Source of the DNA: a virus
Lineage: Duplodnaviria; Caudoviricetes
DNA: 52,348 bases
Virus record (IMG/VR): IMGVR_UViG_3300044715_001249
Span: 1 to 52,348 of that record
Reading direction: 5' to 3' (one strand)
The notes beneath the pieces were generated by a model. The model was not told the origin of the DNA. It was given only the letters and a program-made list of their open reading frames with translations, and did no database searches. Made by a program: the position numbers and the translations under genes. Below, in pieces: positions 664 through 9,909 of this stretch; position 1 is the first letter of the stretch, and each line of letters opens with the position of its first letter.

Positions 664-1193
664 ACACCTGGCCCCTCCCCTGGCGCATCGCCGCCGCGCT
701 CGCCCGCGAGTCCGGGCTCGACTGGGCGCGGTGGGCGTACGGCGAGTACTACTGCGACTGCGACACGGACGCGATGATCGTCCCGGGCGTCGAGTACATC
801 GGCATCCCAGACCCATCGGACGCCGAGGCGTACCGGGCCGACTGCGCGCGGCGGGGCGTGGATCCGGGGCCGATGCCGGCGTTGGAGTACGTCGGCGACG
901 GCGACGGCGTGGAGTGGCTTGCGCTGCTGTCGAGTGCGATCGTCATCGTGGGTCGTCTATCGGCGACGATCGACGCCCACGCGGTGTCGATGGAGTGCGG
1001 TCGCGATACGGCTGAGCGACTCGCCCGCCTCTTGGCCCTTGCCACCGCGGCAGCGCGCGCGATGGGGGTGGGTGATGGCGACCTCGCTTCAACGCTACTG
1101 GTTCGCCGCGAGGACCGCATGCGGACCCCGGGAAAGACGCGACTCGCTCGCGCGCTCGCCGAAGCCGAGCGGCTGCTACAGCCCGACGTGTAG
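660..1193 (+). CDS. Hypothetical protein (177 aa)
   Basis: GTG at 660 overlaps the previous stop. The sequence is protein-like from VNTWPLPW; start trimmed from the 564 ORF. Confidence 0.6.
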   Translation: MNTWPLPWRIAAALARESGLDWARWAYGEYYCDCDTDAMIVPGVEYIGIPDPSDAEAYRADCARRGVDPGPMPALEYVGDGDGVEWLALLSSAIVIVGRLSATIDAHAVSMECGRDTAERLARLLALATAAARAMGVGDGDLASTLLVRREDRMRTPGKTRLARALAEAERLLQPDV

Positions 1194-3449
1194 CGCGTAG
1201 GACTGCACGAGGTCGAGCGCGACGGCATGGACCCTAACCGGCCCGCGCCGGCGCTCGACCCCGTCCGAGACCCCGACGAGTGCGGCGGCGATCGTACGCA
1301 GGCCTGCCCCGCGCGGCGCGGGGAACAGCGCACCGAGCAGCCCCGCGGGGTCGACCACGACATGCCCGGGGATCTCGTCGACCCGGCACCATTCCGAGCC
1401 GCCGATCTGCACCTCTTGCGCGATGCGCACGAGCAGATCGCCGCGCAGCCCCGAGCTTACGCACGCGAGCCGGCTCAGCTCGAGGTCACCCGCGCCGACC
1501 CAGAACCGATCGACCGGCGTGTGCTCGCGCGCGAGCTCGGCGAGCCACAGCACGTGGCGTGCGATCGCATCGCCCTCGACGAGGTCGAGCGGGTCGATCG
1601 ACGCGCGCGACCAGTGGCCGACCACCGGGATGTGCAGCACGCGATCGCCGAACGCATGCAAGCTCTCGTCGTTGAGCTCCCACGACACCGCGCCGCGGAT
1701 CAGCGCAACGGCGTCGTTCGTGGCGACCGCGTACCGCATGCAACCCTCGACGCGCTGCACGTCGTGCCCCTTGCGCTCGAGGCGTTGGACGCGATCGTTC
1801 ACGCCCTCGCGCAAGAACGCGGCGAGGGCTTGCCCGGTCTCGGTCGACGACGTGTCATCGTCGGCGACGGCGAGGCCGCTCGACGTGACCTCGCTATTGA
1901 ATCGACGGCCGAGGACGTCGCGCATCTTCGACGCGCCTTGCGGCCACAGCCGACCGACGCCTTGCAAGATCATCGATTTGCCTGTGCCCGGCGCCCCCGA
2001 TAGGATCAAGGCGCGGCACGGGAGATCGGTGCGCAGCAGCCCGGCGAGCCAGAGCCCGAGCTGCGAGGCGTAGGGCCCGGCGAGCTCGGCGACGAGGCGC
2101 TCGACGGCCGGCGAGCGCTCGGGCTCGAGGTCGGTGCGGACCGGCGCAGCCGCGACGGTGAGAGCGTTGATGCTCGGGTCGTACGTCGTAGCCCGGCACG
2201 CCAGCGAGTGCTTGAGGTCGGCGAGGGCGCGGCCGTGCGCGCCGAGCAGCGCGCCCACGTCCTCGAACGGGTCGAGCGTGTACACGGCCGCGAGCGCGCC
2301 GAGGACGTCGACGGTGAGACCATCACGCAAGAACGGCCCGGCCCACGACTCGCCCACGCGCAGGTAATAGGACTTGCCGCGGTGCAGCACGAGCGGACCG
2401 TCATCAACCAGCGCGGTCGCGTCGCTCTCGACACCGACCCACGACCACGCCGCGCGCCGGCGCGCGCCCGTGGTCTCGTCCGCGGCATCGCTGCGGCTCT
2501 CGCGGTCGGCCGTGATGCGGCCCCACTTCTGCAACACCGCTTCGGTGATCGGGATCTCGCACGGGGCGATCGCCTCCATCGCGTCGGCGCTCGGCCCGAA
2601 CAGGGCCGCTATCGCGTCCGGGTCCGCGTGCGGCCATTCATCGGCGAGTTCGCAGAGCACGCGATAGAGCACCGAGTCACGCTCGCCCGGGTCCGAGAAC
2701 GGGCGCCCGTCGGCGACCTGTCGAAGCGCACGGCCGATCGACTGCCGGCCCGCACGCGAGGTCAGGCGCTCGCCGAAGGCGCGCAGATCAAAGCGGCTCG
2801 GGTTGATCATCGCCGTGCCGAGGCGCTCGAGGCCGCGGCGCCAGTGCTCGTGCAAGGGCGGGAACGCGACGCGGCCCGAGGTGAGCACGTCGATCAGGGC
2901 GGGGCTCGCGGTGTACTCGTGCGAGGTCGCGGCGTGGATCGAGCCCGGTGCGAGCACGTAGCCTCCGGTGCTCTTGACGTCGACGCCGCTCGTGATGCCG
3001 TTGCGGCTTCGACTCACGCCGCGATACCATAAATGGATGCCGCCCCCGACGCGGCCGGAGTAGGTGCGAAACTCGGTCGAGCCGCAGACCGCGAGCACGT
3101 CGTCGAGACGCTCGGGCTTGTCGACGTCGATCACGGTGCAGCCGAACGACGCGGGCAAGATCGCGGCGTTGCTCGCGGCGTGGCGCCGGCACCAATCGCC
3201 GAGGACCTCGGGCGGGATCGGGGGCGAGCCGTGCTCGGCGAAGCTGTGCGGGTCGTCGTGAAGCGGGTTCCATCCCTTCTCGCCGCGCTGCACCTTGGCG
3301 CGGCCCCAGCCCGAGATCACCGGCGACTTGGCGCCGGGGACCATCGGGATCACGTTCGCACCGAGACCAACCCACGGCGCAGCGACAGCCCAGAAGCGGC
3401 CGACGACCGGCACGTGCGCGTCGAGCCAAGGCAAGCGAGTGGGGCTCAA
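1176..3449 (-). CDS. Bifunctional DNA primase/polymerase (prim-pol) fused to a P-loop helicase/ATPase
   Basis: Prim-pol motifs (VIDVD, GGGIHLWY, GVDVKSTGGYVLAPGS) and Walker A (LILSGAPGTGKS). TTG start has a GAGGTG RBS. Confidence 0.85.
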   Translation of the reverse strand: MSPTRLPWLDAHVPVVGRFWAVAAPWVGLGANVIPMVPGAKSPVISGWGRAKVQRGEKGWNPLHDDPHSFAEHGSPPIPPEVLGDWCRRHAASNAAILPASFGCTVIDVDKPERLDDVLAVCGSTEFRTYSGRVGGGIHLWYRGVSRSRNGITSGVDVKSTGGYVLAPGSIHAATSHEYTASPALIDVLTSGRVAFPPLHEHWRRGLERLGTAMINPSRFDLRAFGERLTSRAGRQSIGRALRQVADGRPFSDPGERDSVLYRVLCELADEWPHADPDAIAALFGPSADAMEAIAPCEIPITEAVLQKWGRITADRESRSDAADETTGARRRAAWSWVGVESDATALVDDGPLVLHRGKSYYLRVGESWAGPFLRDGLTVDVLGALAAVYTLDPFEDVGALLGAHGRALADLKHSLACRATTYDPSINALTVAAAPVRTDLEPERSPAVERLVAELAGPYASQLGLWLAGLLRTDLPCRALILSGAPGTGKSMILQGVGRLWPQGASKMRDVLGRRFNSEVTSSGLAVADDDTSSTETGQALAAFLREGVNDRVQRLERKGHDVQRVEGCMRYAVATNDAVALIRGAVSWELNDESLHAFGDRVLHIPVVGHWSRASIDPLDLVEGDAIARHVLWLAELAREHTPVDRFWVGAGDLELSRLACVSSGLRGDLLVRIAQEVQIGGSEWCRVDEIPGHVVVDPAGLLGALFPAPRGAGLRTIAAALVGVSDGVERRRGPVRVHAVALDLVQSYALHVGL

Positions 3450-3716: not shown

Positions 3717-3788
3717 ATGATCGTGCTCGTGCTCGCCGCGGCCTTGTTCTGGCTCGTGATCCGGTCGAAGGGCGACGCGTCGCCATGA
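3717..3788 (+). CDS. 23-aa hydrophobic membrane peptide
   Basis: MIVLVLAAALFWLVIRSKGDASP*, GAGGT RBS, ATGA overlap with the next gene. Confidence 0.45.
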   Translation: MIVLVLAAALFWLVIRSKGDASP

Positions 3789-5089
3789 CCGCCCCGAGTT
3801 GCGACCACGTCTGGGCCCGCGACCTCGGCCGCGTGCGGTGTGCCGCGTGCGGCGTGTTGGTGCACGCGTCCCCAACACAGCTCGAGGACTGGCGCGCGTG
3901 CCCGCGCAAGTGGAAATATCGCCGCCTGCGCAAGCTCTACCCGGTGCCCGATAACGTGTGGGCCGCGTTCGGCACCCGCGCGCACAAGATCCGCGAGGAC
4001 TGGCTGCGGTCCGCGATCTGGACCGAGGCGATCGCCGCGAGCAAAGAAGGGCAGTGCGTCGCCGCCGGCATCGAGCACTGGCCGCGCCCCGGGCAGGCGC
4101 TCGGTGTCGAGATCGAGGTCGAGCGCGCCGACCTGCTCGGCGACGGCGTGCCGTGGACGTTCAAAATCGACGACGTCGCCGCGTCGACCCACGCGTACGA
4201 CCTCGGCGATCTCAAGACGATCGGGCAGCTGCGCTACCGCAAGACCGCGGCCGAGCTCGAGGCAGACGCGCAGCGCGTCGTGTATTCGGTCTGGGGCGGG
4301 CCGGTGCTGCGGCTCCCGGTGATCCGCGCGGCGTGGACGTACTGTCAGCGCTCGCCCGCGGGCGCGGCCCTGGTCACGCACGAGGGCGTGGTGAGCCACG
4401 ACCGAGAGCGGCTCGCCGCGATCAACGTCGAGGCGCGGGCGATGCTCGAGGCGAACCTGCGCCCGCTCGACGAGCAGGACCGCAACCGAGCCGAGTGCTA
4501 CCGCTACAAGGGGCACCCGTGCGCGTACGTCGATCACTGCCTGGCCGATCAGAATCTTCTTGCGATCGATTCGATCGAGCCGTATACACCGATCACCATG
4601 ACCGCACCCACTCTCGCAGACGTCCTTGCAGCCCAGGCCGGCACGGCCATCCCCGCACCAGTCGCGCCGGCTCTGCCGCCGATGCCCGTACCGGGCCCGG
4701 CGCTTCCGCCCCCGCCCCCGCCGAAGCCCTTGATCGTCCTCGCACCCGAGCTCGAGGCGTGGGTCGCGGGCTGCGTCGCCGCCGGCCACGACGAGGCCGT
4801 GGTCCGGGCCCAGGCCGAGGCCGCGATGGTCGGCCGGGCCGCGCCTGCGCCCCAGGCCGCGCCTGCGCCCCAGGCCGCGCCTGCGCCGGTCGTGACGCCC
4901 GCACCCGAGACCCCGACGCCCGCCCCGGCCCGCCGCGGGCGACCGCCCAAGGCGCGCACCGATGTGCCGCTCGTCGACGTGCACACGATCGCGGCCACGC
5001 TCGCGGCGCGCGCGGTGTCGGGCCCGGCCTCGCCCGAGGCCGTGGTCGAGGCGTATCACGCGGTACTCGCGCTGCTCACGGGCGAGTGA
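3785..5089 (+). CDS. Cas4-like/RecB-family PD-(D/E)XK exonuclease with Pro/Ala-rich C-terminal extension
   Basis: SPTQLEDWRACPRKW, FGTRAH, KIDD...GDLKT and a C-terminal Cys cluster (C-x6-C-x5-C). AT-hook-like RRGRPPK in the tail. Confidence 0.8.
   Translation: MTAPSCDHVWARDLGRVRCAACGVLVHASPTQLEDWRACPRKWKYRRLRKLYPVPDNVWAAFGTRAHKIREDWLRSAIWTEAIAASKEGQCVAAGIEHWPRPGQALGVEIEVERADLLGDGVPWTFKIDDVAASTHAYDLGDLKTIGQLRYRKTAAELEADAQRVVYSVWGGPVLRLPVIRAAWTYCQRSPAGAALVTHEGVVSHDRERLAAINVEARAMLEANLRPLDEQDRNRAECYRYKGHPCAYVDHCLADQNLLAIDSIEPYTPITMTAPTLADVLAAQAGTAIPAPVAPALPPMPVPGPALPPPPPPKPLIVLAPELEAWVAGCVAAGHDEAVVRAQAEAAMVGRAAPAPQAAPAPQAAPAPVVTPAPETPTPAPARRGRPPKARTDVPLVDVHTIAATLAARAVSGPASPEAVVEAYHAVLALLTGE
4838..4887 (+). 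repeat. In-frame 18-bp tandem repeat (AAPAPQ, about 2.8 copies)
   Basis: gccgcgcctgcgccccag repeated. Confidence 0.85.
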
Positions 5090-6726
5090 TGGCCAGCCCC
5101 GCAGCAGACTTCGACGCCTCGGGCATCGCGTGCGAGGACGGCGACCCCGACCTCGCGCGCGTGCTCAAGCTGTCGGCGTCGACCTCGGCCTCGCCCGAGT
5201 TCGTGGCCGCGCTCTCGGTCCGGCTCTCGCGGCCGGGCACCGATTGCGAGCTGCGGCAGAAGCAAGCAGAGGCGCTGCGGGACCTGTGGGATCACGGCGG
5301 GGTGTTTGCGTCGATGCCGACCGGCGAAGGCAAAACGCTCGTGACGCTGCTCGCCGCGACGCTGCTCGGCTCCGAGCGCCCGGTCTTGATCTTGCCCGCG
5401 AACTGTCGCGACAAGACGCGCACCGAGTTCGCCGAGTACCTCGCCGATGGCTGGCACGTGCGCCTGCCGACGCTGCTCAGCTACTCCGAACTGTCGCGGG
5501 CGGATCGCGAGCATCGGCTGCTCGAGCTCGCGCCCGATCTGATCTTGCTCGACGAGGCCGACGAAGCGCGCAACGTCGACGGGACTGGCTTCGGTCGACG
5601 GATCCGCCGCGCCTTGGCCAAGCTCGAGCCCCGCCCCCGCGTCGGGATCCTCAGCGCCACGCTGATCACCGATCAGCTCTTGGACTACTGGGAGCTCTTG
5701 CGATGGGCGCTGCGCGACGAGGCCCCGGTGCCGCAGCACAAGCCCGCGGCCGAGCGATGGGCGAGCGCGACCGACCGCACGATCCGCGGCGAGCTGCGCC
5801 GGCGTGAGCCCGGGGGCTTGGCCAAGATCCCGGGCGGGTTCCACCATCACCTGCGCACGCGCGCCGGCGTCGTCTCGGGGCGCGGCGAGGTGTGCCCGGC
5901 CGAGATCGAGATCACGACCTGGGTGCCGCCGATCGACGACGGGCTGCGCCGCTTGATCACGACCTGCGCCTTGCTCGGCAAGCGCCCCGACGGCGAGCGC
6001 GTAACCGAGTGGGAAATGCCCGATCTGCAGTGCTGCCTCGCGCAGGGCTTCTACCAGGTTTGGGACCCGCTGCCGCCGCGATGGTGGCTCGACCCGCGCC
6101 GCGCGTATCTCGAGTACGAGCGTGCCGTGCTCGACGAACAGATCGAGGGCTTCGACACGCCATCCCAGATCCGCGACGCGCTCGACGATCGGCACCGCCG
6201 ACCACAGCCGCCGGCCGCTGCCGAGGCGCGAGCCCTGCTCGCGGCGTGGCGCGCGGTCAAGGACAAGTTCGAGCCGAACTCGGTCCCGGTCTGGGTCACG
6301 CCCGCGATCATGGATGCGGTCGTCGCACACGCGACGAAGCCCGGCCAAATCGTATGGGTCAAGCACCGCGCGCCGGGCATCGAGCTGCAGCGCCGCGGCC
6401 TGCCATACTTCGGCGCGGACACGGCCCCGCACCAACACACGCCCGGCGCCCCGATGTGCTGCTCGATCCCCGCGCACGGCCGAGGCAAGAACCTGCAAGC
6501 GTGGTGGCGCGCGCTCGTGCTGCACCCGCCGGCGAAGGCCCGCAAGTGGGAGCAGTTGATCAGCCGCGAGCATCGACCCGGGCAACACGCCCCGACGATT
6601 TTCGTTGAAGTGATCGCGGGCGTGGAGTACCATGGGCAAGTGCTCGAACGCGTGGTGAACGAGGCGAAAGCCGATTCCGACGCCTCGGGCGTACCGAACA
6701 AGATCGTGATCGCGAAATGGAAGTGA
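5089..6726 (+). CDS. Superfamily 2 helicase (DEAD-box/SNF2-like)
   Basis: MPTGEGKT, LLDEAD, LSAT, GKNLQ and QLISREHR motifs. ATG 5089 overlaps the upstream TGA; start trimmed from the 3958 ORF. Confidence 0.85.
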   Translation: MASPAADFDASGIACEDGDPDLARVLKLSASTSASPEFVAALSVRLSRPGTDCELRQKQAEALRDLWDHGGVFASMPTGEGKTLVTLLAATLLGSERPVLILPANCRDKTRTEFAEYLADGWHVRLPTLLSYSELSRADREHRLLELAPDLILLDEADEARNVDGTGFGRRIRRALAKLEPRPRVGILSATLITDQLLDYWELLRWALRDEAPVPQHKPAAERWASATDRTIRGELRRREPGGLAKIPGGFHHHLRTRAGVVSGRGEVCPAEIEITTWVPPIDDGLRRLITTCALLGKRPDGERVTEWEMPDLQCCLAQGFYQVWDPLPPRWWLDPRRAYLEYERAVLDEQIEGFDTPSQIRDALDDRHRRPQPPAAAEARALLAAWRAVKDKFEPNSVPVWVTPAIMDAVVAHATKPGQIVWVKHRAPGIELQRRGLPYFGADTAPHQHTPGAPMCCSIPAHGRGKNLQAWWRALVLHPPAKARKWEQLISREHRPGQHAPTIFVEVIAGVEYHGQVLERVVNEAKADSDASGVPNKIVIAKWK

Positions 6727-6729
6727 CAT

Positions 6730-6848
6730 CGACCGATCGTCTAAAGGCCAGTGCGTGCGCAGCGGTTTCGCGTCCGGGCGACGTAATCCAGAGGAAAGAT
6801 CCCGGGAGTGTCCCGGGGATGCGGGTTCGATTCCCGCTCGGTCGACCA
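6730..6848 (+). ncRNA. tRNA-like RNA with enlarged interior (pseudo-tRNA or tRNA mimic)
   Basis: Acceptor stem CGACCGA/TCGGTCG followed by A-CCA; canonical T-arm GCGGG-TTCGATT-CCCGC; TC-GTCTAAAGG D-arm-like start; about 45 extra nt. Confidence 0.6.
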
Positions 6849-6889
6849 TGCGGCGCGAGCCGCAGTAGAAGCAAGGCAAGGACAAGAAC

Positions 6890-7558
6890 ATGACGCAACC
6901 GATCAGCCCAGAACAATGGCAAGCCTTCCGCGCGCAGGGGCATACCGATGCGCAGATCATGAGCCACTTCCACATCAACCCGACCCCGATGCTGCCTGGC
7001 CCGCCGCCACCGGCTCCGGCCCATGCACCGCGCGGCAGCATCGACGATCTCACGGGCGACGAGGCCGTGTTTCGGCACCCGAAGCTGCCCGCCGGCACTC
7101 GGCTCGTGACCGTGCTCGAGATCGAGGGCCCGGTCGCGACGAACTACGGCGACGCGGTGTTCGTGGGCGTGTGCGACGAGCACGGCGACAAGTACAGGAT
7201 CAAGCACAAGCACGGGACCGCGATCGAGCAGAACATCGCACGCCAGTCGCTCGCGTGCCTCGTCGCGGCATGCGGCGCGCGAAGCCTCAGCGAACTTCGC
7301 AAGGGCTGCGCTCGTCAGGTCCGGGTCAACGCGGTTGAGGCCGTGGCCAAGAACGGGCAACCGTACATTCGCGTCGACTACCTCTCGGCGTCGGCCCCCG
7401 TGCCGAGCTCGGCCCCCACGGCCTCGGCCCCGGCCTTGACCATGCCGCCGATGCCCGGGGCGCCCGCCATGCCCGCCATGCCCGCCATGCCCACGGCCCC
7501 GGCCGCGGCCTTGCCGACCATGCCCCCGCCGGGCTGGATGGGAGCGTGGCCGCCGTGA
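6890..7558 (+). CDS. Putative single-stranded DNA-binding protein with Pro/Met-rich termini
   Basis: Lies between helicase and polymerase. Beta-rich core ending AKNGQPYIRVDY; AAGGA RBS. Confidence 0.5.
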   Translation: MTQPISPEQWQAFRAQGHTDAQIMSHFHINPTPMLPGPPPPAPAHAPRGSIDDLTGDEAVFRHPKLPAGTRLVTVLEIEGPVATNYGDAVFVGVCDEHGDKYRIKHKHGTAIEQNIARQSLACLVAACGARSLSELRKGCARQVRVNAVEAVAKNGQPYIRVDYLSASAPVPSSAPTASAPALTMPPMPGAPAMPAMPAMPTAPAAALPTMPPPGWMGAWPP

Positions 7559-7869: not shown

Positions 7870-9909
7870 ATGATCACCGCCATCGACACCGAGACCGAGC
7901 TCGCGGGCAATCGCAACCCGATCCCGCGGCTGGCTTGCGTGTCGATGGCGTCCGAGCTTGGCGTCGAGGTCGTGCACCACAGCGACCCGCGCTTGTTCTC
8001 GATGGTGGTCGGGGCGCTGGCGGGCGGTGCCGTGTTCGCCAACGCCCCGTTTGATTTGTTCGCGCTGTGGCGTCACCTCGGCCCCAAGCTGTGGCCGCAC
8101 ATCCGCGCCGCGCTTGAGGCCGGGCGCGTGTTCGATGTCTTGACCCGCGAGAAGCTGATCGACATCGCTGCCGGCAAGCATCGCCAGCGCGGCGCGTACA
8201 ATCTCGGAGCCGTGGCCGAGCGCCGCGCGGGCATCAAGCTCGACAAGCACGACCCCTGGCGCCGCCGCTACGGCGCCTTGATCGACATCCCGATCAAGGA
8301 CTGGCCGATCGCCGCGATCGAGTACTCGCAGCGCGACGCATGGGGCACGTGGCGCGTGTACCAAGAACAAGAGGCCGAGCGTGCGCGGCATCGGATCGAC
8401 GTGTTCCTCGACGCGCCGGCCCAGGCCCGCGCCCACCTCGCGCTGTACGCGATGACGCTGCGCGGGATCCACACCGACGCCGCCCGCGTCGAGGCGCTCG
8501 ATCGGTTGCTCTCGGAGCGGATCCGACGGCTCGAGGCGCGCATCCTGATCGACAAGCTCGGCCGGTACAAGCACAAGAAGAAGCGCCCGAGTCCCGTGGT
8601 GCGCGCCAAGGCCGCGGCGCAGGCCGCCCTCGTCGAGTGGTGCCGCGCGACGGGCCGGCAGGCCACACGCAACGACCTGACGGACGCCGCGCGCATGCGG
8701 GGCGAGACGCTGGGGTCGATCGCCATGTCCAAGAAGGCGCTCGAGGCCGCCGGGGTCCCGCGCGGGAAGTGGCTCGACCTCGACCTCGTCGACAAGGCCG
8801 ACCCGTTCAAGGTCGCGCACCCGCTCGAGGTGTATCGCGAGCTCGGCGGGCTGCGGGCGGCCTACTCCAAGAACATCCCCGTTCTGCGCCACCCTGTGAT
8901 CCGCACGCGGTACGACGAGCTCGTGAGCTCGGGCCGCACGAGCGCGTCCGGGTTCAAGTCGATCCAGGTCGAGGACGCGGACGACGACGACGACGATAGC
9001 CTCGCGGACTTCGATTGCGAGCTCGAACCCGGCGACGAGTGGGTCGGCACGAACACGCAGAACTTCGGCCGCGACGGCGGCTGGCGCGAGTGCTTGATCC
9101 CGCCGCCCGGCAAGCGCCTGGGCTCGACCGATTACGGCGCGCTCGAGCTCGTGACGTTCGCGCAGGTACAACTCGACATGCTCAAGCGCTCGACGCTCGC
9201 CGACCTCCTGCGCGCGGGCAAGGACCCGCACCGGGCATTCGCTGCCGAGCACGTACTGCGGATCCCCTACGATTTTTACAGCAAGGCCCAGCACAACGAC
9301 GCGCGCCAGCTGGCGAAGGCGTGGAACTTCGGCAAGCCCGGGGGCATGGGCGAGGGTCGGTTCATCGAGTGGGCGTGGGTGACGTACGACGTCGCGATCA
9401 CGCCGGCGCAGCACAAGCAGATCGACGCGGTCTATCACGCGGCGTTCCCAGAGGTGCGCATGTTCTGGCACGCGATCAAGAGCAAGATGCAGACCGGGCA
9501 CGGCGATCGCGGCCCGGTCTACACCGTGGTGCAGCCGCGCACGCATCGGATCCGCGGGGGCTGCGGATTCCCTGACGCCGCGAATACCCACTTTCAGGGG
9601 CTCGGCGCGGACGTGGCCAAGCGCGCGGCCTGGCTCTTGTTCTGCGCCGGCCTCGACCCGTCCTCGCCCCTGCACGGCTGCTACCAGATTCTGTTCGAGC
9701 ACGACGCGTTCTCGACCGTCATCGCCGACAGCCCCGATCACGTGCCGTGGCCGAAGGGGACCCCCAACGCCGCGGCCGGGGCGTGCGCTTGCCGGGGCTG
9801 CTCGCAGCTCGCAGAGCAGGAACGGATCATGATCGCGGCCTCGGCCGAGCTGTGCCCAGACGTGCCGATGAAGGTTGAATCGACGAACACCGATCGGTAT
9901 CAGAAGTGA
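7870..9909 (+). CDS. polA: Phage family A DNA polymerase with 3'-5' exonuclease domain
   Basis: Exo I (IDTET), Exo II (NAPFDL), Exo III (YSQRD); motif A (DYGALEL), motif B (RQLAKAWNFG), FQGLGAD, motif C (HD). Confidence 0.92.
   Translation: MITAIDTETELAGNRNPIPRLACVSMASELGVEVVHHSDPRLFSMVVGALAGGAVFANAPFDLFALWRHLGPKLWPHIRAALEAGRVFDVLTREKLIDIAAGKHRQRGAYNLGAVAERRAGIKLDKHDPWRRRYGALIDIPIKDWPIAAIEYSQRDAWGTWRVYQEQEAERARHRIDVFLDAPAQARAHLALYAMTLRGIHTDAARVEALDRLLSERIRRLEARILIDKLGRYKHKKKRPSPVVRAKAAAQAALVEWCRATGRQATRNDLTDAARMRGETLGSIAMSKKALEAAGVPRGKWLDLDLVDKADPFKVAHPLEVYRELGGLRAAYSKNIPVLRHPVIRTRYDELVSSGRTSASGFKSIQVEDADDDDDDSLADFDCELEPGDEWVGTNTQNFGRDGGWRECLIPPPGKRLGSTDYGALELVTFAQVQLDMLKRSTLADLLRAGKDPHRAFAAEHVLRIPYDFYSKAQHNDARQLAKAWNFGKPGGMGEGRFIEWAWVTYDVAITPAQHKQIDAVYHAAFPEVRMFWHAIKSKMQTGHGDRGPVYTVVQPRTHRIRGGCGFPDAANTHFQGLGADVAKRAAWLLFCAGLDPSSPLHGCYQILFEHDAFSTVIADSPDHVPWPKGTPNAAAGACACRGCSQLAEQERIMIAASAELCPDVPMKVESTNTDRYQK

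What the first reader, a model, noticed from the sequence alone, without database searches (positions are those of the whole stretch)
6730..6848. 119-nt tRNA-like RNA with perfect ends and an oversized, non-canonical interior
Seen: it starts 3 nt after the helicase stop. It has a 7-bp acceptor stem (CGACCGA/TCGGTCG, extendable by T6729:A6845), an encoded CCA, a perfect T-arm and a Glu/Gln-like TCGTCTAAAGG start. The best D-stem partner (AGAT 6797-6800) lies about 54 nt away, so the D-loop holds about 45 extra nt with small hairpins (e.g. CGTC-CGGGC-GACG). The anticodon position is a 7-bp stem CCCGGGA/TCCCGGG with only a GTG triloop and no U33. Established: GUG plus an extra acceptor pair are tRNA-His-like traits, and RNase P recognises the acceptor/T-arm. 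Inference: it is unlikely to decode. It may be a tRNA mimic (decoy for anticodon nucleases or tRNA-targeting toxins) or a processing element that punctuates the replication operon.
Basis: partly seen in the sequence, partly recalled or inferred. Interest (0 to 1): 0.7.

Follow-up and report, generated by a model that had tools for sequence, protein, structure and literature searches.

The report
Non-decoding tRNA look-alike in phage operon
A lake-water phage carries, wedged between two replication genes, a conserved RNA that keeps a tRNA's shape and CCA end but cannot read codons, so it most likely serves as a cutting mark for the host's tRNA-trimming enzymes or as a tRNA mimic.

Summary
Window 6730-6848 (+) has a perfect 7-bp acceptor stem, a 4-bp D-stem, a perfect T-arm, A73 and an encoded CCA. 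Its D-loop is 54 nt and the anticodon position is a 7-bp stem with a 3-nt loop. ARAGORN and Rfam at curated thresholds call nothing in the window.

The only close relative I could fetch (L148, helicase 75% identical) carries the same element at the same spot. It is 99 nt there and scores 32.2 bits on Rfam tRNA, above the cut-off of 29. Both odd features are shared. All 59 comparable pair cells stay paired, and 5 pairs changed on both sides. The tRNA body is 68/80 identical, against 59% at four-fold sites of the helicase gene. So it is a selected RNA, not a decaying tRNA.

The loop reads GUG in the window and GUCA in L148, so the His-like reading fails. Relatives at 47-49% helicase identity lack the element.

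Best reading (0.45): a tRNA-shaped processing signal inside the replication operon that also releases a stable tRNA-like RNA. No expression data exist and only two sequences are known. The scan has noted similar non-decoding tRNA look-alikes in other phages.

The parts
5089..6726 (+). DEAD-box/SF2 helicase gene that ends 3 nt before the element (context)
   Evidence: Pfam DEAD/ResIII and PHROG DNA helicase. The GC3 frame switches at about 5050. Translation.
6729..6729 (+). U at position -1. It is conserved in L148 and could pair with A73.
6730..6736 (+). Acceptor stem, 5' strand (CGACCGA)
   Evidence: 7/7 pairs with 6838-6844. The A3:U70 pair becomes G3:C70 in L148.
6739..6742 (+). D-stem, 5' strand (GUCU)
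   Evidence: Pairs with 6797-6800. G10:U25 becomes A10:U25 in L148. Same register as the Rfam tRNA alignment of L148.
6743..6796 (+). 54-nt D-loop. Conserved single-stranded AAAGGC at the 5' side and CCAGAGG(A/C)A at the 3' side flank an inserted hairpin.
   Evidence: Alignment: 9/9 and 12/13 identical blocks. Two GG doublets could serve as G18G19; the register is not resolved.
6746..6789 (+). Extended hairpin inside the D-loop, 20 nt longer than in L148
   Evidence: MFE folds. In both copies a distal helix of 3 bp (window) or 4 bp (L148) closes an 8-nt loop, above an AG/G internal loop. The length difference is split into gaps of 9 and 10 nt on the two strands. Weak point: the window hairpin alone folds no better than shuffles (z +0.78).
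6797..6800 (+). D-stem, 3' strand (AGAU)
6801..6817 (+). Closed stem at the anticodon position: 7 bp with a GUG loop. No U33 and no 7-nt loop.
   Evidence: L148 has 6 bp with a GUCA loop. One pair changed on both sides (G:C to U:A) and one on one side (C:G to U:G). RNAalifold recovers the stem.
6818..6820 (+). Short variable region (GAU in the window, UAU in L148)
6821..6837 (+). T-arm: GCGGG, loop UUCGAUU, CCCGC
   Evidence: Identical in L148. It matches the tmRNA model's T-arm segment letter for letter.
6838..6844 (+). Acceptor stem, 3' strand (UCGGUCG)
6845..6848 (+). Discriminator A73 and encoded CCA
6849..6864 (+). 6-bp hairpin with a tetraloop, directly abutting the CCA
   Evidence: 3 of 5 counted pairs changed on both sides between the two copies. 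RNAalifold adds U6849:A6864. Fold z-scores -2.64 and -3.04. A strain variant C6854>U keeps the pair as U:G.
6862..6869 (+). GCAGUAGA, invariant in both copies. Its last 5 nt lie single-stranded after the hairpin.
   Evidence: Alignment. Occurs once in the genome. Its function is inferred only.
6890..7558 (+). Downstream 222-aa ORF of unknown function. It starts 41 nt after the CCA and has an AAGGA ribosome-binding motif.
   Evidence: 57% identical to the L148 ORF. The 3-nt and 41-nt spacings are the same in both genomes. No Pfam or PHROG hit.

Best explanation
The element is a tRNA-derived, non-decoding structural RNA under purifying selection. It entered as a cassette of about 140 nt (tRNA-like body, abutting hairpin, GUAGA) between the helicase gene and the next replication gene, in one sublineage of an uncultured lake myovirus.

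It keeps what tRNA-processing enzymes read: a coaxial 7-bp acceptor and 5-bp T-arm, a canonical T-loop, a D-stem with conserved D-loop purines, U at -1 and A73-CCA. It has lost what decoding needs, a 7-nt anticodon loop.

Most likely mechanism (inferred):
1. It is transcribed as part of the helicase-to-polymerase message.
2. Host RNase P cuts at its 5' end, 3 nt after the helicase stop.
3. Host 3'-end enzymes cut at or after the CCA and hairpin.
4. The operon transcript is thereby split into a helicase mRNA and a downstream mRNA.
5. A stable CCA-ended tRNA-like RNA is released as a by-product, or as a second product.

Shown: structure, conservation, position, loss of decoding features. Inferred: transcription, cleavage and any effect on expression.
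For: Structure and conservation:
- All tRNA hallmarks except the D-loop size and the anticodon loop are present.
- The homologue L148 sits at the identical position, 3 nt after the helicase stop and 41 nt before the next ATG.
- 59/59 pair cells are paired. 5 pairs changed on both sides and 2 on one side. Sliding the partners gives at most 55% paired.
- RNAalifold independently recovers the acceptor stem, the closed stem, the T-arm and the post-CCA hairpin.
- The body is 68/80 identical, against 148/251 at four-fold sites of the adjacent helicase.
- The 20-nt length difference is not a multiple of 3, and no codon phase shows high GC over 6700-6850. So the stretch is non-coding.
- Rfam tRNA aligns L148 over all 71 model positions at 32.2 bits.

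Position and genome context:
- Same strand as the flanking genes. No sigma-70-like promoter, and no terminator on the + strand, in 6300-7100.
- U at -1 and RCCA are conserved. That bacterial RNase P prefers these is recalled knowledge.
- The phage has no canonical tRNA, so the element is not part of a codon-supply set.
- No integrase, CCA-adding enzyme, reverse transcriptase or RNA ligase was found.
- Canonical tRNA genes lie near this helicase family in 13 of 149 relatives' loci, on the helicase strand in 12 of them. So tRNA genes in this module are a recurring feature.

Precedent:
- RNase P cuts phage and operon RNAs that are not tRNAs (passages of PMC11143913).
- Plant mitochondrial t-elements act as cleavage signals. 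They are CCA-tailed but not charged (abstracts of PMC1920247 and 10.1101/2024.09.09.612099).
Against: - Only two sequences exist, so covariation has no statistical power. 14/500 shuffles reach the observed values.
- There is no RNA evidence at all. No RNA run was listed.
- The thermodynamic signal is modest. Whole-element z is -1.54 (13/200 shuffles fold as well) and -2.03 (5/200).
- The cloverleaf is 3.8 and 1.7 kcal/mol above the MFE.
- The window's D-loop hairpin folds no better than shuffles (157/200).
- Relatives at 47-49% helicase identity run the same operon without the element. It is therefore dispensable, and a processing role is not required.
- Conservation of the D-loop blocks and of the closed stem goes beyond what RNase P needs. 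This hints at a role for the released RNA.
- A hairpin abutting the CCA would hinder exonucleolytic 3' trimming.
- Strain-level data show 0 changes in the element but also 0 in the last 330 nt of the helicase gene, so they do not discriminate.
Confidence: 0.45

Rival explanations
1. The released RNA itself is the selected product. It would be a trans-acting tRNA mimic, either charged by an anticodon-independent synthetase or binding and titrating a tRNA-recognising protein. Candidates are a host defence enzyme that acts on acceptor ends, a modification enzyme, EF-Tu, or a phage protein. The operon position would then be only a convenient way to express it.
For: - Conservation reaches beyond the acceptor/T-arm minihelix. 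The D-stem, AAAGGC, CCAGAGG(A/C)AAGAU and a possible A15:U48 pair are kept, which suggests an intact tRNA core and elbow.
- CCA is encoded, and the phage has no CCA-adding enzyme.
- The D-loop hairpin keeps its distal architecture while its length changes.
- T4 RNAC and RNAD are precedents for stable phage RNAs from the tRNA region with unknown roles (passage of PMC3014915).
Against: - No partner gene is evident. 35 ORFs scanned against PHROGs show no tRNA-related enzyme.
- The acceptor lacks G3:U70, so AlaRS identity is absent.
- C1:G72 with A73 resembles tRNA-Pro of the MAG. ProRS needs the anticodon, which is recalled knowledge.
- The closed, variable loop excludes anticodon-nuclease decoys.
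- Plant t-elements with similar features are not charged (abstract).
- There are no expression data.
Confidence: 0.3
2. It is a cis-acting stability element that is not cut out. The compact tRNA-like fold and the abutting hairpin would act as a 3' cap protecting the helicase mRNA from exonucleases. Alternatively, the hairpin would act as a 5' cap for the downstream mRNA.
For: - The element starts 3 nt after the stop codon.
- A stable hairpin with three compensatory pairs follows the CCA.
- There is no U-tract, so it is not an intrinsic terminator.
Against: - A plain hairpin would suffice for protection. Keeping the T-loop sequence, D-stem, discriminator and CCA is unexplained by this reading.
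- Bacterial RNase P cuts such substrates efficiently (established knowledge; passages).
Confidence: 0.1
3. It is a decaying tRNA gene, a pseudogene left from a once functional phage tRNA, with no present function.
For: - Related phages carry ordinary tRNAs in this module.
- L036 and L074 carry degraded-looking ones.
- The element is absent from relatives at 47-49% identity.
Against: - Two genomes whose four-fold sites are only 59% identical keep 85% identity in the body and share both abnormalities.
- Every varying stem position keeps pairing.
- The T-arm through the CCA is 29/31 identical.
Confidence: 0.08
4. It is a recombination site, an attP-like copy of a host tRNA 3' half used for integration.
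For: The 3' part resembles host tRNA ends. The best model hits in 150 further sphingomonad-family genomes are tRNA-Cys, at up to 40.8 bits.
Against: - No tyrosine integrase was found in six frames.
- The genome has direct terminal repeats and a lytic-type replication module.
- Both acceptor strands are present and co-vary, which an att core does not need.
Confidence: 0.03

Closest known systems
Canonical bacterial or phage tRNA (Rfam RF00005)
   Same: 7-bp acceptor stem, 4-bp D-stem, 5-bp T-stem with a UUCGAUU loop, discriminator and CCA. L148 passes the Rfam cut-off (32.2 against 29 bits).
   Different: The D-loop has 54 nt (window) or 34 nt (L148) with a hairpin. The loop at the anticodon position has 3-5 nt, lacks U33 and varies in sequence. 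Position 26 and the variable region are shortened. ARAGORN with default settings rejects both copies. The window copy scores 22.7 bits.
Plant mitochondrial t-elements and the tRNA-punctuation model of mitochondrial transcripts (Forner et al. 2007, PMC1920247; Ceriotti et al. 2024 preprint)
   Same: Non-decoding tRNA-like structures inside longer transcripts, next to mRNA ends. They are thought to be cut by RNase P or RNase Z. They are CCA-tailed but not charged (abstracts).
   Different: Those are organellar. This element is in a phage operon, has an encoded CCA, and its processing is untested.
Phage T4 stable RNAs RNAC and RNAD (species 1 and 2)
   Same: Small phage RNAs linked to tRNA genes with unknown function (passage of PMC3014915). 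That they have tRNA-like ends is recalled, not seen in a call.
   Different: They lie in the T4 tRNA cluster, not between protein genes.
tmRNA tRNA-like domain (RF00023)
   Same: The T-arm is identical to the model consensus. ACCA end.
   Different: Only 17 nt match (14.3 bits against a cut-off of 47). No G3:U70, no tag reading frame, no pseudoknots, and only 119 nt long. ARAGORN's tmRNA search is negative.
Bacterial Y RNA-like YrlA (RF02553)
   Same: A tRNA-mimicking module in a non-coding RNA.
   Different: 13.8 bits against a cut-off of 69. In YrlA the ends form the Ro-binding stem, not an acceptor stem with CCA (recalled from PMC4201824; I saw only its search listing).

Membership tests
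tRNA (RF00005) | Score at or above the Rfam gathering cut-off (29 bits) | tested here: inconclusive
   L148 scores 32.2 bits. The window copy scores 22.7 bits, on an alternative alignment at 6779-6845, and has no gathering-level hit.
tRNA (RF00005) | 7-bp acceptor stem, 5-bp T-stem, 7-nt T-loop, discriminator | tested here: met
tRNA (RF00005) | Anticodon arm of 5 bp with a 7-nt loop and U33 | tested here: not met
   The window has a 7-bp stem with a GUG loop. L148 has a 6-bp stem with a GUCA loop.
tRNA (RF00005) | D-loop of about 7-11 nt | tested here: not met
   54 nt in the window and 34 nt in L148, each with an internal hairpin.
tRNA (RF00005) | Detected by ARAGORN at default settings | tested here: not met
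   0 genes in the window and in L148. Only relaxed runs give mismatched models.
tRNA-His | GUG anticodon and a G-1:C73 pair | tested here: not met
   GUG is in the window only; L148 has GUCA. The -1:73 pair is U:A in both copies.
tmRNA (RF00023) | Score over the cut-off, G3:U70, tag ORF, pseudoknots | tested here: not met
   14.3 bits against 47, T-arm only. Pair 3:70 is A:U or G:C. ARAGORN -m is negative.
YrlA (RF02553) | Score over the cut-off (69 bits) | tested here: not met
   13.8 bits on L148.
Tymovirus-type tRNA-like 3' element (RF00233) | Score over the cut-off (40 bits) | tested here: not met
   14.3 bits on L148.
t-element-like processing signals (functional class) | Transcript ends generated at the borders of the tRNA-like structure by RNase P or RNase Z | not testable with these tools
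   No RNA run was listed. The runs laid were DNA contigs.
T4 RNAC/RNAD-type stable RNAs | Sequence or structure similarity to rnaC or rnaD | not tested
   I used no model or sequence of these RNAs. I saw only a review passage.

The most novel reading that the evidence does not exclude
Phages of this lineage, and others noted by the scan, have turned a tRNA into a dual-purpose device. First, an intercistronic cut-here signal lets host RNase P uncouple the helicase from the later replication genes. Second, the excised product is a CCA-ended, anticodon-less tRNA body carrying a variable-length D-loop hairpin, and it acts in trans. For example, it could soak up a host factor or defence enzyme that recognises the tRNA elbow or acceptor end. 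If so, this would be a new functional class of phage tRNA mimics, not a degenerate tRNA.
Probability: 0.2. Interest if true: 0.75.

Novelty: new variant of a known kind. Interest (0 to 1): 0.5.

Why it matters
Non-decoding tRNA look-alikes have been known in phages since T4 RNAC and RNAD but remain unexplained. This one is small and cleanly defined, and it lies between two protein genes of a replication operon rather than in a tRNA cluster. That position makes the 'tRNA punctuation' idea directly testable in a bacterial virus, by RNase P assay, end mapping or deletion. If the idea holds, standard tRNA finders miss a class of phage regulatory signals. If instead the released RNA is the active product, it points to a host tRNA-recognising factor that phages target.

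Tried and rejected
Searches for more homologues. Only L148 was found.
- blastn of 6400-7200 and tblastn of the helicase against 50,697 phage records: no match.
- PolA tblastn: 73 records, all below 60% identity.
- Exact and IUPAC patterns of the element in IMG/VR: 0, 1 unrelated tandem-tRNA locus, and 0.
- Single-protein locus search: none.
- Helicase-profile locus searches:
  - IMG/VR: 153 relatives, the best 80 kept, top identity 49%.
  - Metagenomes: 65 relatives, top 47%.
  - GTDB genomes: 4 relatives, including L148.
- The closest helicase relatives (P0002-P0011, 60-86% identical) come from collections whose DNA I could not fetch.
- A T-arm pattern scan from 100 nt before to 500 nt after the helicase match end in 80 loci gave 2 pattern hits (L035, L056). 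I did not examine them by eye, and model R1 did not hit them.
- Model R1 over 150 sources found only ordinary or degraded tRNAs besides the two elements.
- R1 over 151 sphingomonad-family genomes found the element only in G001. The best other hits are 30-41 bits; the five fetched were tRNA-Cys (3), tRNA-Gly and tRNA-Lys.

Expression:
- No RNA holder was listed among 19 lake-water runs.

Strain variation:
- Contigs of runs X6 and X10 cover the element with 0 changes. The adjacent helicase 3' end is equally unchanged, so this does not discriminate.
- X5 and X8 had no cover over most of the element.

Side track:
- The 3' part of the L074 tRNA-like RNA matched only its own contig and two unrelated jumbo-phage loci.

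Readings rejected:
- ARAGORN's intron mode gave a tRNA-Trp with a 107-nt intron reaching into the helicase gene. I rejected it as an artefact.
- The ORF 6717-6893 that spans the element is not coding. The 20-nt indel between the copies breaks the frame and there is no GC3 signal.
- The terminator-like hit on the minus strand is only the closed stem read backwards.

Supplementary files of papers were not consulted.

Full report
**Context.** The window is a complete virus record of 52,348 bp with direct terminal repeats and 70% G+C. Gene content marks it as a contractile-tailed phage:
- Structural genes: sheath, baseplate, tape measure, portal, terminase and major head protein.
- Replication module: primase-polymerase (minus strand, 1176-3449), PD-(D/E)XK exonuclease (3785-5089), DEAD-type helicase (5089-6726), a 222-aa ORF (6890-7558) and family-A DNA polymerase (7870-9909).

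It has no close relative among 50,697 deposited phages. The 19 listed runs that hold parts of it are all lake-water metagenomes.

**The observation.**
- The helicase stop is at 6724-6726 and the element starts at 6730.
- Acceptor stem: 6730-6736 pairs with 6838-6844, 7 of 7 pairs.
- D-stem: 6739-6742 pairs with 6797-6800.
- The D-loop is 54 nt.
- The anticodon position (6801-6817) is a 7-bp stem with a GUG loop.
- T-arm: 6821-6837, perfect.
- A6845 is the discriminator and CCA is at 6846-6848.

Standard detectors miss it. ARAGORN at default settings finds no tRNA in the genome. Rfam at gathering thresholds finds nothing. In E-value mode the best hit is the 17-nt T-arm against the tmRNA model, at 14.3 bits against a cut-off of 47. 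RF00005 at E<=10 over the whole genome gives one candidate, and it is here: 22.7 bits on an alternative alignment at 6779-6845. Relaxed ARAGORN runs give a 74-nt 'tRNA-His(gtg)' with a G.G mismatch in its acceptor stem, and an artefactual intron model.

**A homologue.** The helicase has 88 database relatives, but I could fetch DNA for few of them. Profile-based locus searches gave the following:
- 80 IMG/VR loci kept of 153 relatives, at most 49% identity.
- 4 loci in GTDB genomes.

One of the GTDB loci, L148, is a 6.3-kb contig binned with an Erythrobacter MAG. Its helicase is 75% identical to the window's. It carries the element at the identical position: 3 nt after the helicase stop, after the same CAU, and 41 nt before the ATG of the orthologous next ORF, which is 57% identical. 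The element is 99 nt there. Rfam's tRNA model aligns it end to end at 32.2 bits (cut-off 29, E 1.8e-5), with a 30-nt insert in the D-loop and a 4-nt loop in place of the anticodon loop. ARAGORN at default settings rejects it too.

**Selection.** On the pairwise alignment, with the cloverleaf plus the post-CCA hairpin as the structure:
- 59 of 59 comparable cells are standard pairs.
- 5 pairs changed on both sides: A3:U70 to G:C in the acceptor stem, G:C to U:A in the closed stem, and three in the post-CCA hairpin.
- 2 pairs changed on one side, to or from a G:U pair.
- Sliding the 3' partners by 1-3 columns gives 27-55% paired.

RNAalifold, run without my structure, recovers the acceptor stem, closed stem, T-arm and post-CCA hairpin.

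The tRNA body without the insert is 68/80 identical, and 29/31 from the variable region to the CCA. The adjacent helicase genes are 148/251 (59%) identical at four-fold degenerate sites of conserved residues.

The 20-nt length difference is not a multiple of three. MAFFT splits it into gaps of 9 and 10 nt. On the folds, these gaps lie on the two strands of the D-loop hairpin. In both copies a short distal helix (3 bp in the window, 4 bp in L148) closes an 8-nt loop and sits on an AG/G internal loop.

Together this rules out a coding stretch and argues strongly against a decaying pseudogene. Both genomes keep the same two abnormalities.

**Limits.**
- Two sequences give no statistical power. 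14 of 500 shuffles reach the observed values.
- Whole-element fold z-scores are only -1.54 and -2.03.
- The cloverleaf lies 3.8 and 1.7 kcal/mol above the MFE.
- The window's D-loop hairpin alone folds no better than shuffles (157/200).
- Which of two conserved GG doublets (AAAGG before the hairpin, AGAGG after it) plays G18G19 is open. Rfam chooses the first. The second would leave a D-loop of normal size around an inserted hairpin.

**Not a decoder, not His-like.** The loop is GUG in the window and GUCA in L148. The stretch from the D-stem to the T-stem is 20 and 19 nt, against 22-23 in a standard tRNA, so a 7-nt loop cannot be formed in L148. The -1:73 pair is U:A. The acceptor end (C1:G72, A73) looks like that of the MAG's tRNA-Pro, the D-arm start like its tRNA-Gln and tRNA-Glu, and the T-arm equals that of its tRNA-Gly. 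With model R1, the best hit among 150 further genomes of the MAG's family is a tRNA-Cys at 40.8 bits, against 131 and 165 bits for the two elements. The parent tRNA therefore cannot be named.

**Distribution.** Relatives at 47-49% helicase identity (L003, L004, L083, L084) lack the element. In L003 and L004 the helicase stop is followed within 10-35 nt by the start of the next ORF, which in L004 resembles the window's ORF 6890 by eye. The element, its abutting hairpin (6849-6864) and the invariant GUAGA thus look like a cassette of about 140 nt gained in one sublineage.

More widely, 13 of 149 loci around this helicase family carry canonical tRNA genes of varied identity, in 12 of them on the helicase strand. 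Model R1 also picked up two degraded-looking ones: L074:5391-5459, with a 5-nt loop, rejected by ARAGORN; and L036:5445-5517, a CAU tRNA at 30 bits with five mismatched pairs. tRNA genes inside this replication module are therefore a recurring theme.

**What the phage lacks.** Six-frame searches found no canonical tRNA, tyrosine integrase, CCA-adding enzyme, reverse transcriptase or RNA ligase. Between 6300 and 7100 no sigma-70-like promoter or plus-strand terminator was found.

**Mechanism.** The kept features are those read by tRNA end-processing enzymes: the 12-bp acceptor/T-arm helix, the T-loop, U at -1 and RCCA. That bacterial RNase P prefers the last two is recalled knowledge. RNase P is known to cut non-tRNA phage RNAs and operon mRNAs (passages of PMC11143913). 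Plant mitochondrial t-elements are tRNA-like, non-decoding cleavage signals at mRNA ends. They are CCA-tailed and modified but not charged (abstracts of PMC1920247 and of preprint 10.1101/2024.09.09.612099).

I therefore favour an intercistronic processing signal that separates the helicase message from the downstream one (confidence 0.45). The conserved hairpin and GUAGA after the CCA could define the 3' cut, or cap the new 5' end.

The strong conservation of the D-loop blocks and the closed stem goes beyond RNase P's needs. This keeps open a trans-acting role for the released RNA (0.3). The nearest phage precedents for that reading are T4 RNAC and RNAD, whose roles are unknown (passage of PMC3014915). 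A pure stability cap (0.1), a pseudogene (0.08) and an att site (0.03) are less likely.

**Expression and strain data.** No RNA run was listed. Contigs from two further lake runs cover the element without change. One variant in the post-CCA hairpin, C6854>U, keeps the pair. The neighbouring coding sequence is equally unchanged, so these data do not discriminate.

**Earlier notes of this scan** describe other anticodon-less tRNA look-alikes in phages, two of them in or next to replication genes. They share no sequence with this one. I treat them as leads, not as support.

**Verdict.** I class it as a new variant of a known but poorly understood kind.

Noticed in passing
L074:5391-5464: A distant helicase relative carries a tRNA-like RNA that ARAGORN rejects (R1 35.5 bits). 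Its loop at the anticodon position has 5 nt (AGAAU), one stem pair is mismatched and it has no CCA. The next ORF's ATG lies 3 nt after the discriminator, and the GGAGG inside the acceptor 3' strand is the only Shine-Dalgarno-like motif. Folding and translation start may therefore compete.
   Followed up: partly
L036:5445-5517: A tRNA with a CAU anticodon that just passes Rfam (30.0 bits). Five pairs are mismatched, including 1:72 and 10:25, and ARAGORN does not call it.
   Followed up: partly
loci L003-L151: 13 of 149 loci around this helicase family hold canonical tRNA genes (Gln, Thr, Met, Leu, Tyr, Ala, Lys, Asn). In 12 of them the genes are on the helicase strand, often one gene downstream of the helicase.
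   Followed up: partly
window 6940-7003: Strain variants from two lake runs cluster in a 64-nt stretch near the start of ORF 6890-7558 (9 changes). The 530 nt before it carry one change.
   Followed up: no
window 3958-6726: The 922-aa ORF listed here comes from the high G+C content. By GC3 phase and Pfam it is two genes: a PD-(D/E)XK exonuclease (3785-5089, another frame) and the helicase starting at ATG 5089, which shares its A with the exonuclease's TGA stop (5087-5089).
   Followed up: yes
protein P0007: One helicase relative (875 aa, 77% identical) carries homing-endonuclease/intein domains (PF05204, PF05203). An intein appears to be inserted in this helicase in a sister phage.
   Followed up: no
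window 6817-6849, run X8: A contig from another, AT-rich organism matches only the T-arm and acceptor 3' part at 80% likeness or more. It is probably an ordinary tRNA with a similar 3' half.
   Followed up: no
L184:1120-1142 and L185:7536-7558: Two jumbo-phage contigs (130 kb and 86 kb) share a conserved stretch of about 180 nt. It ends in a T-arm and acceptor-like 3' end without an obvious tRNA body, and may be a tmRNA-like or tRNA-like RNA.
   Followed up: no
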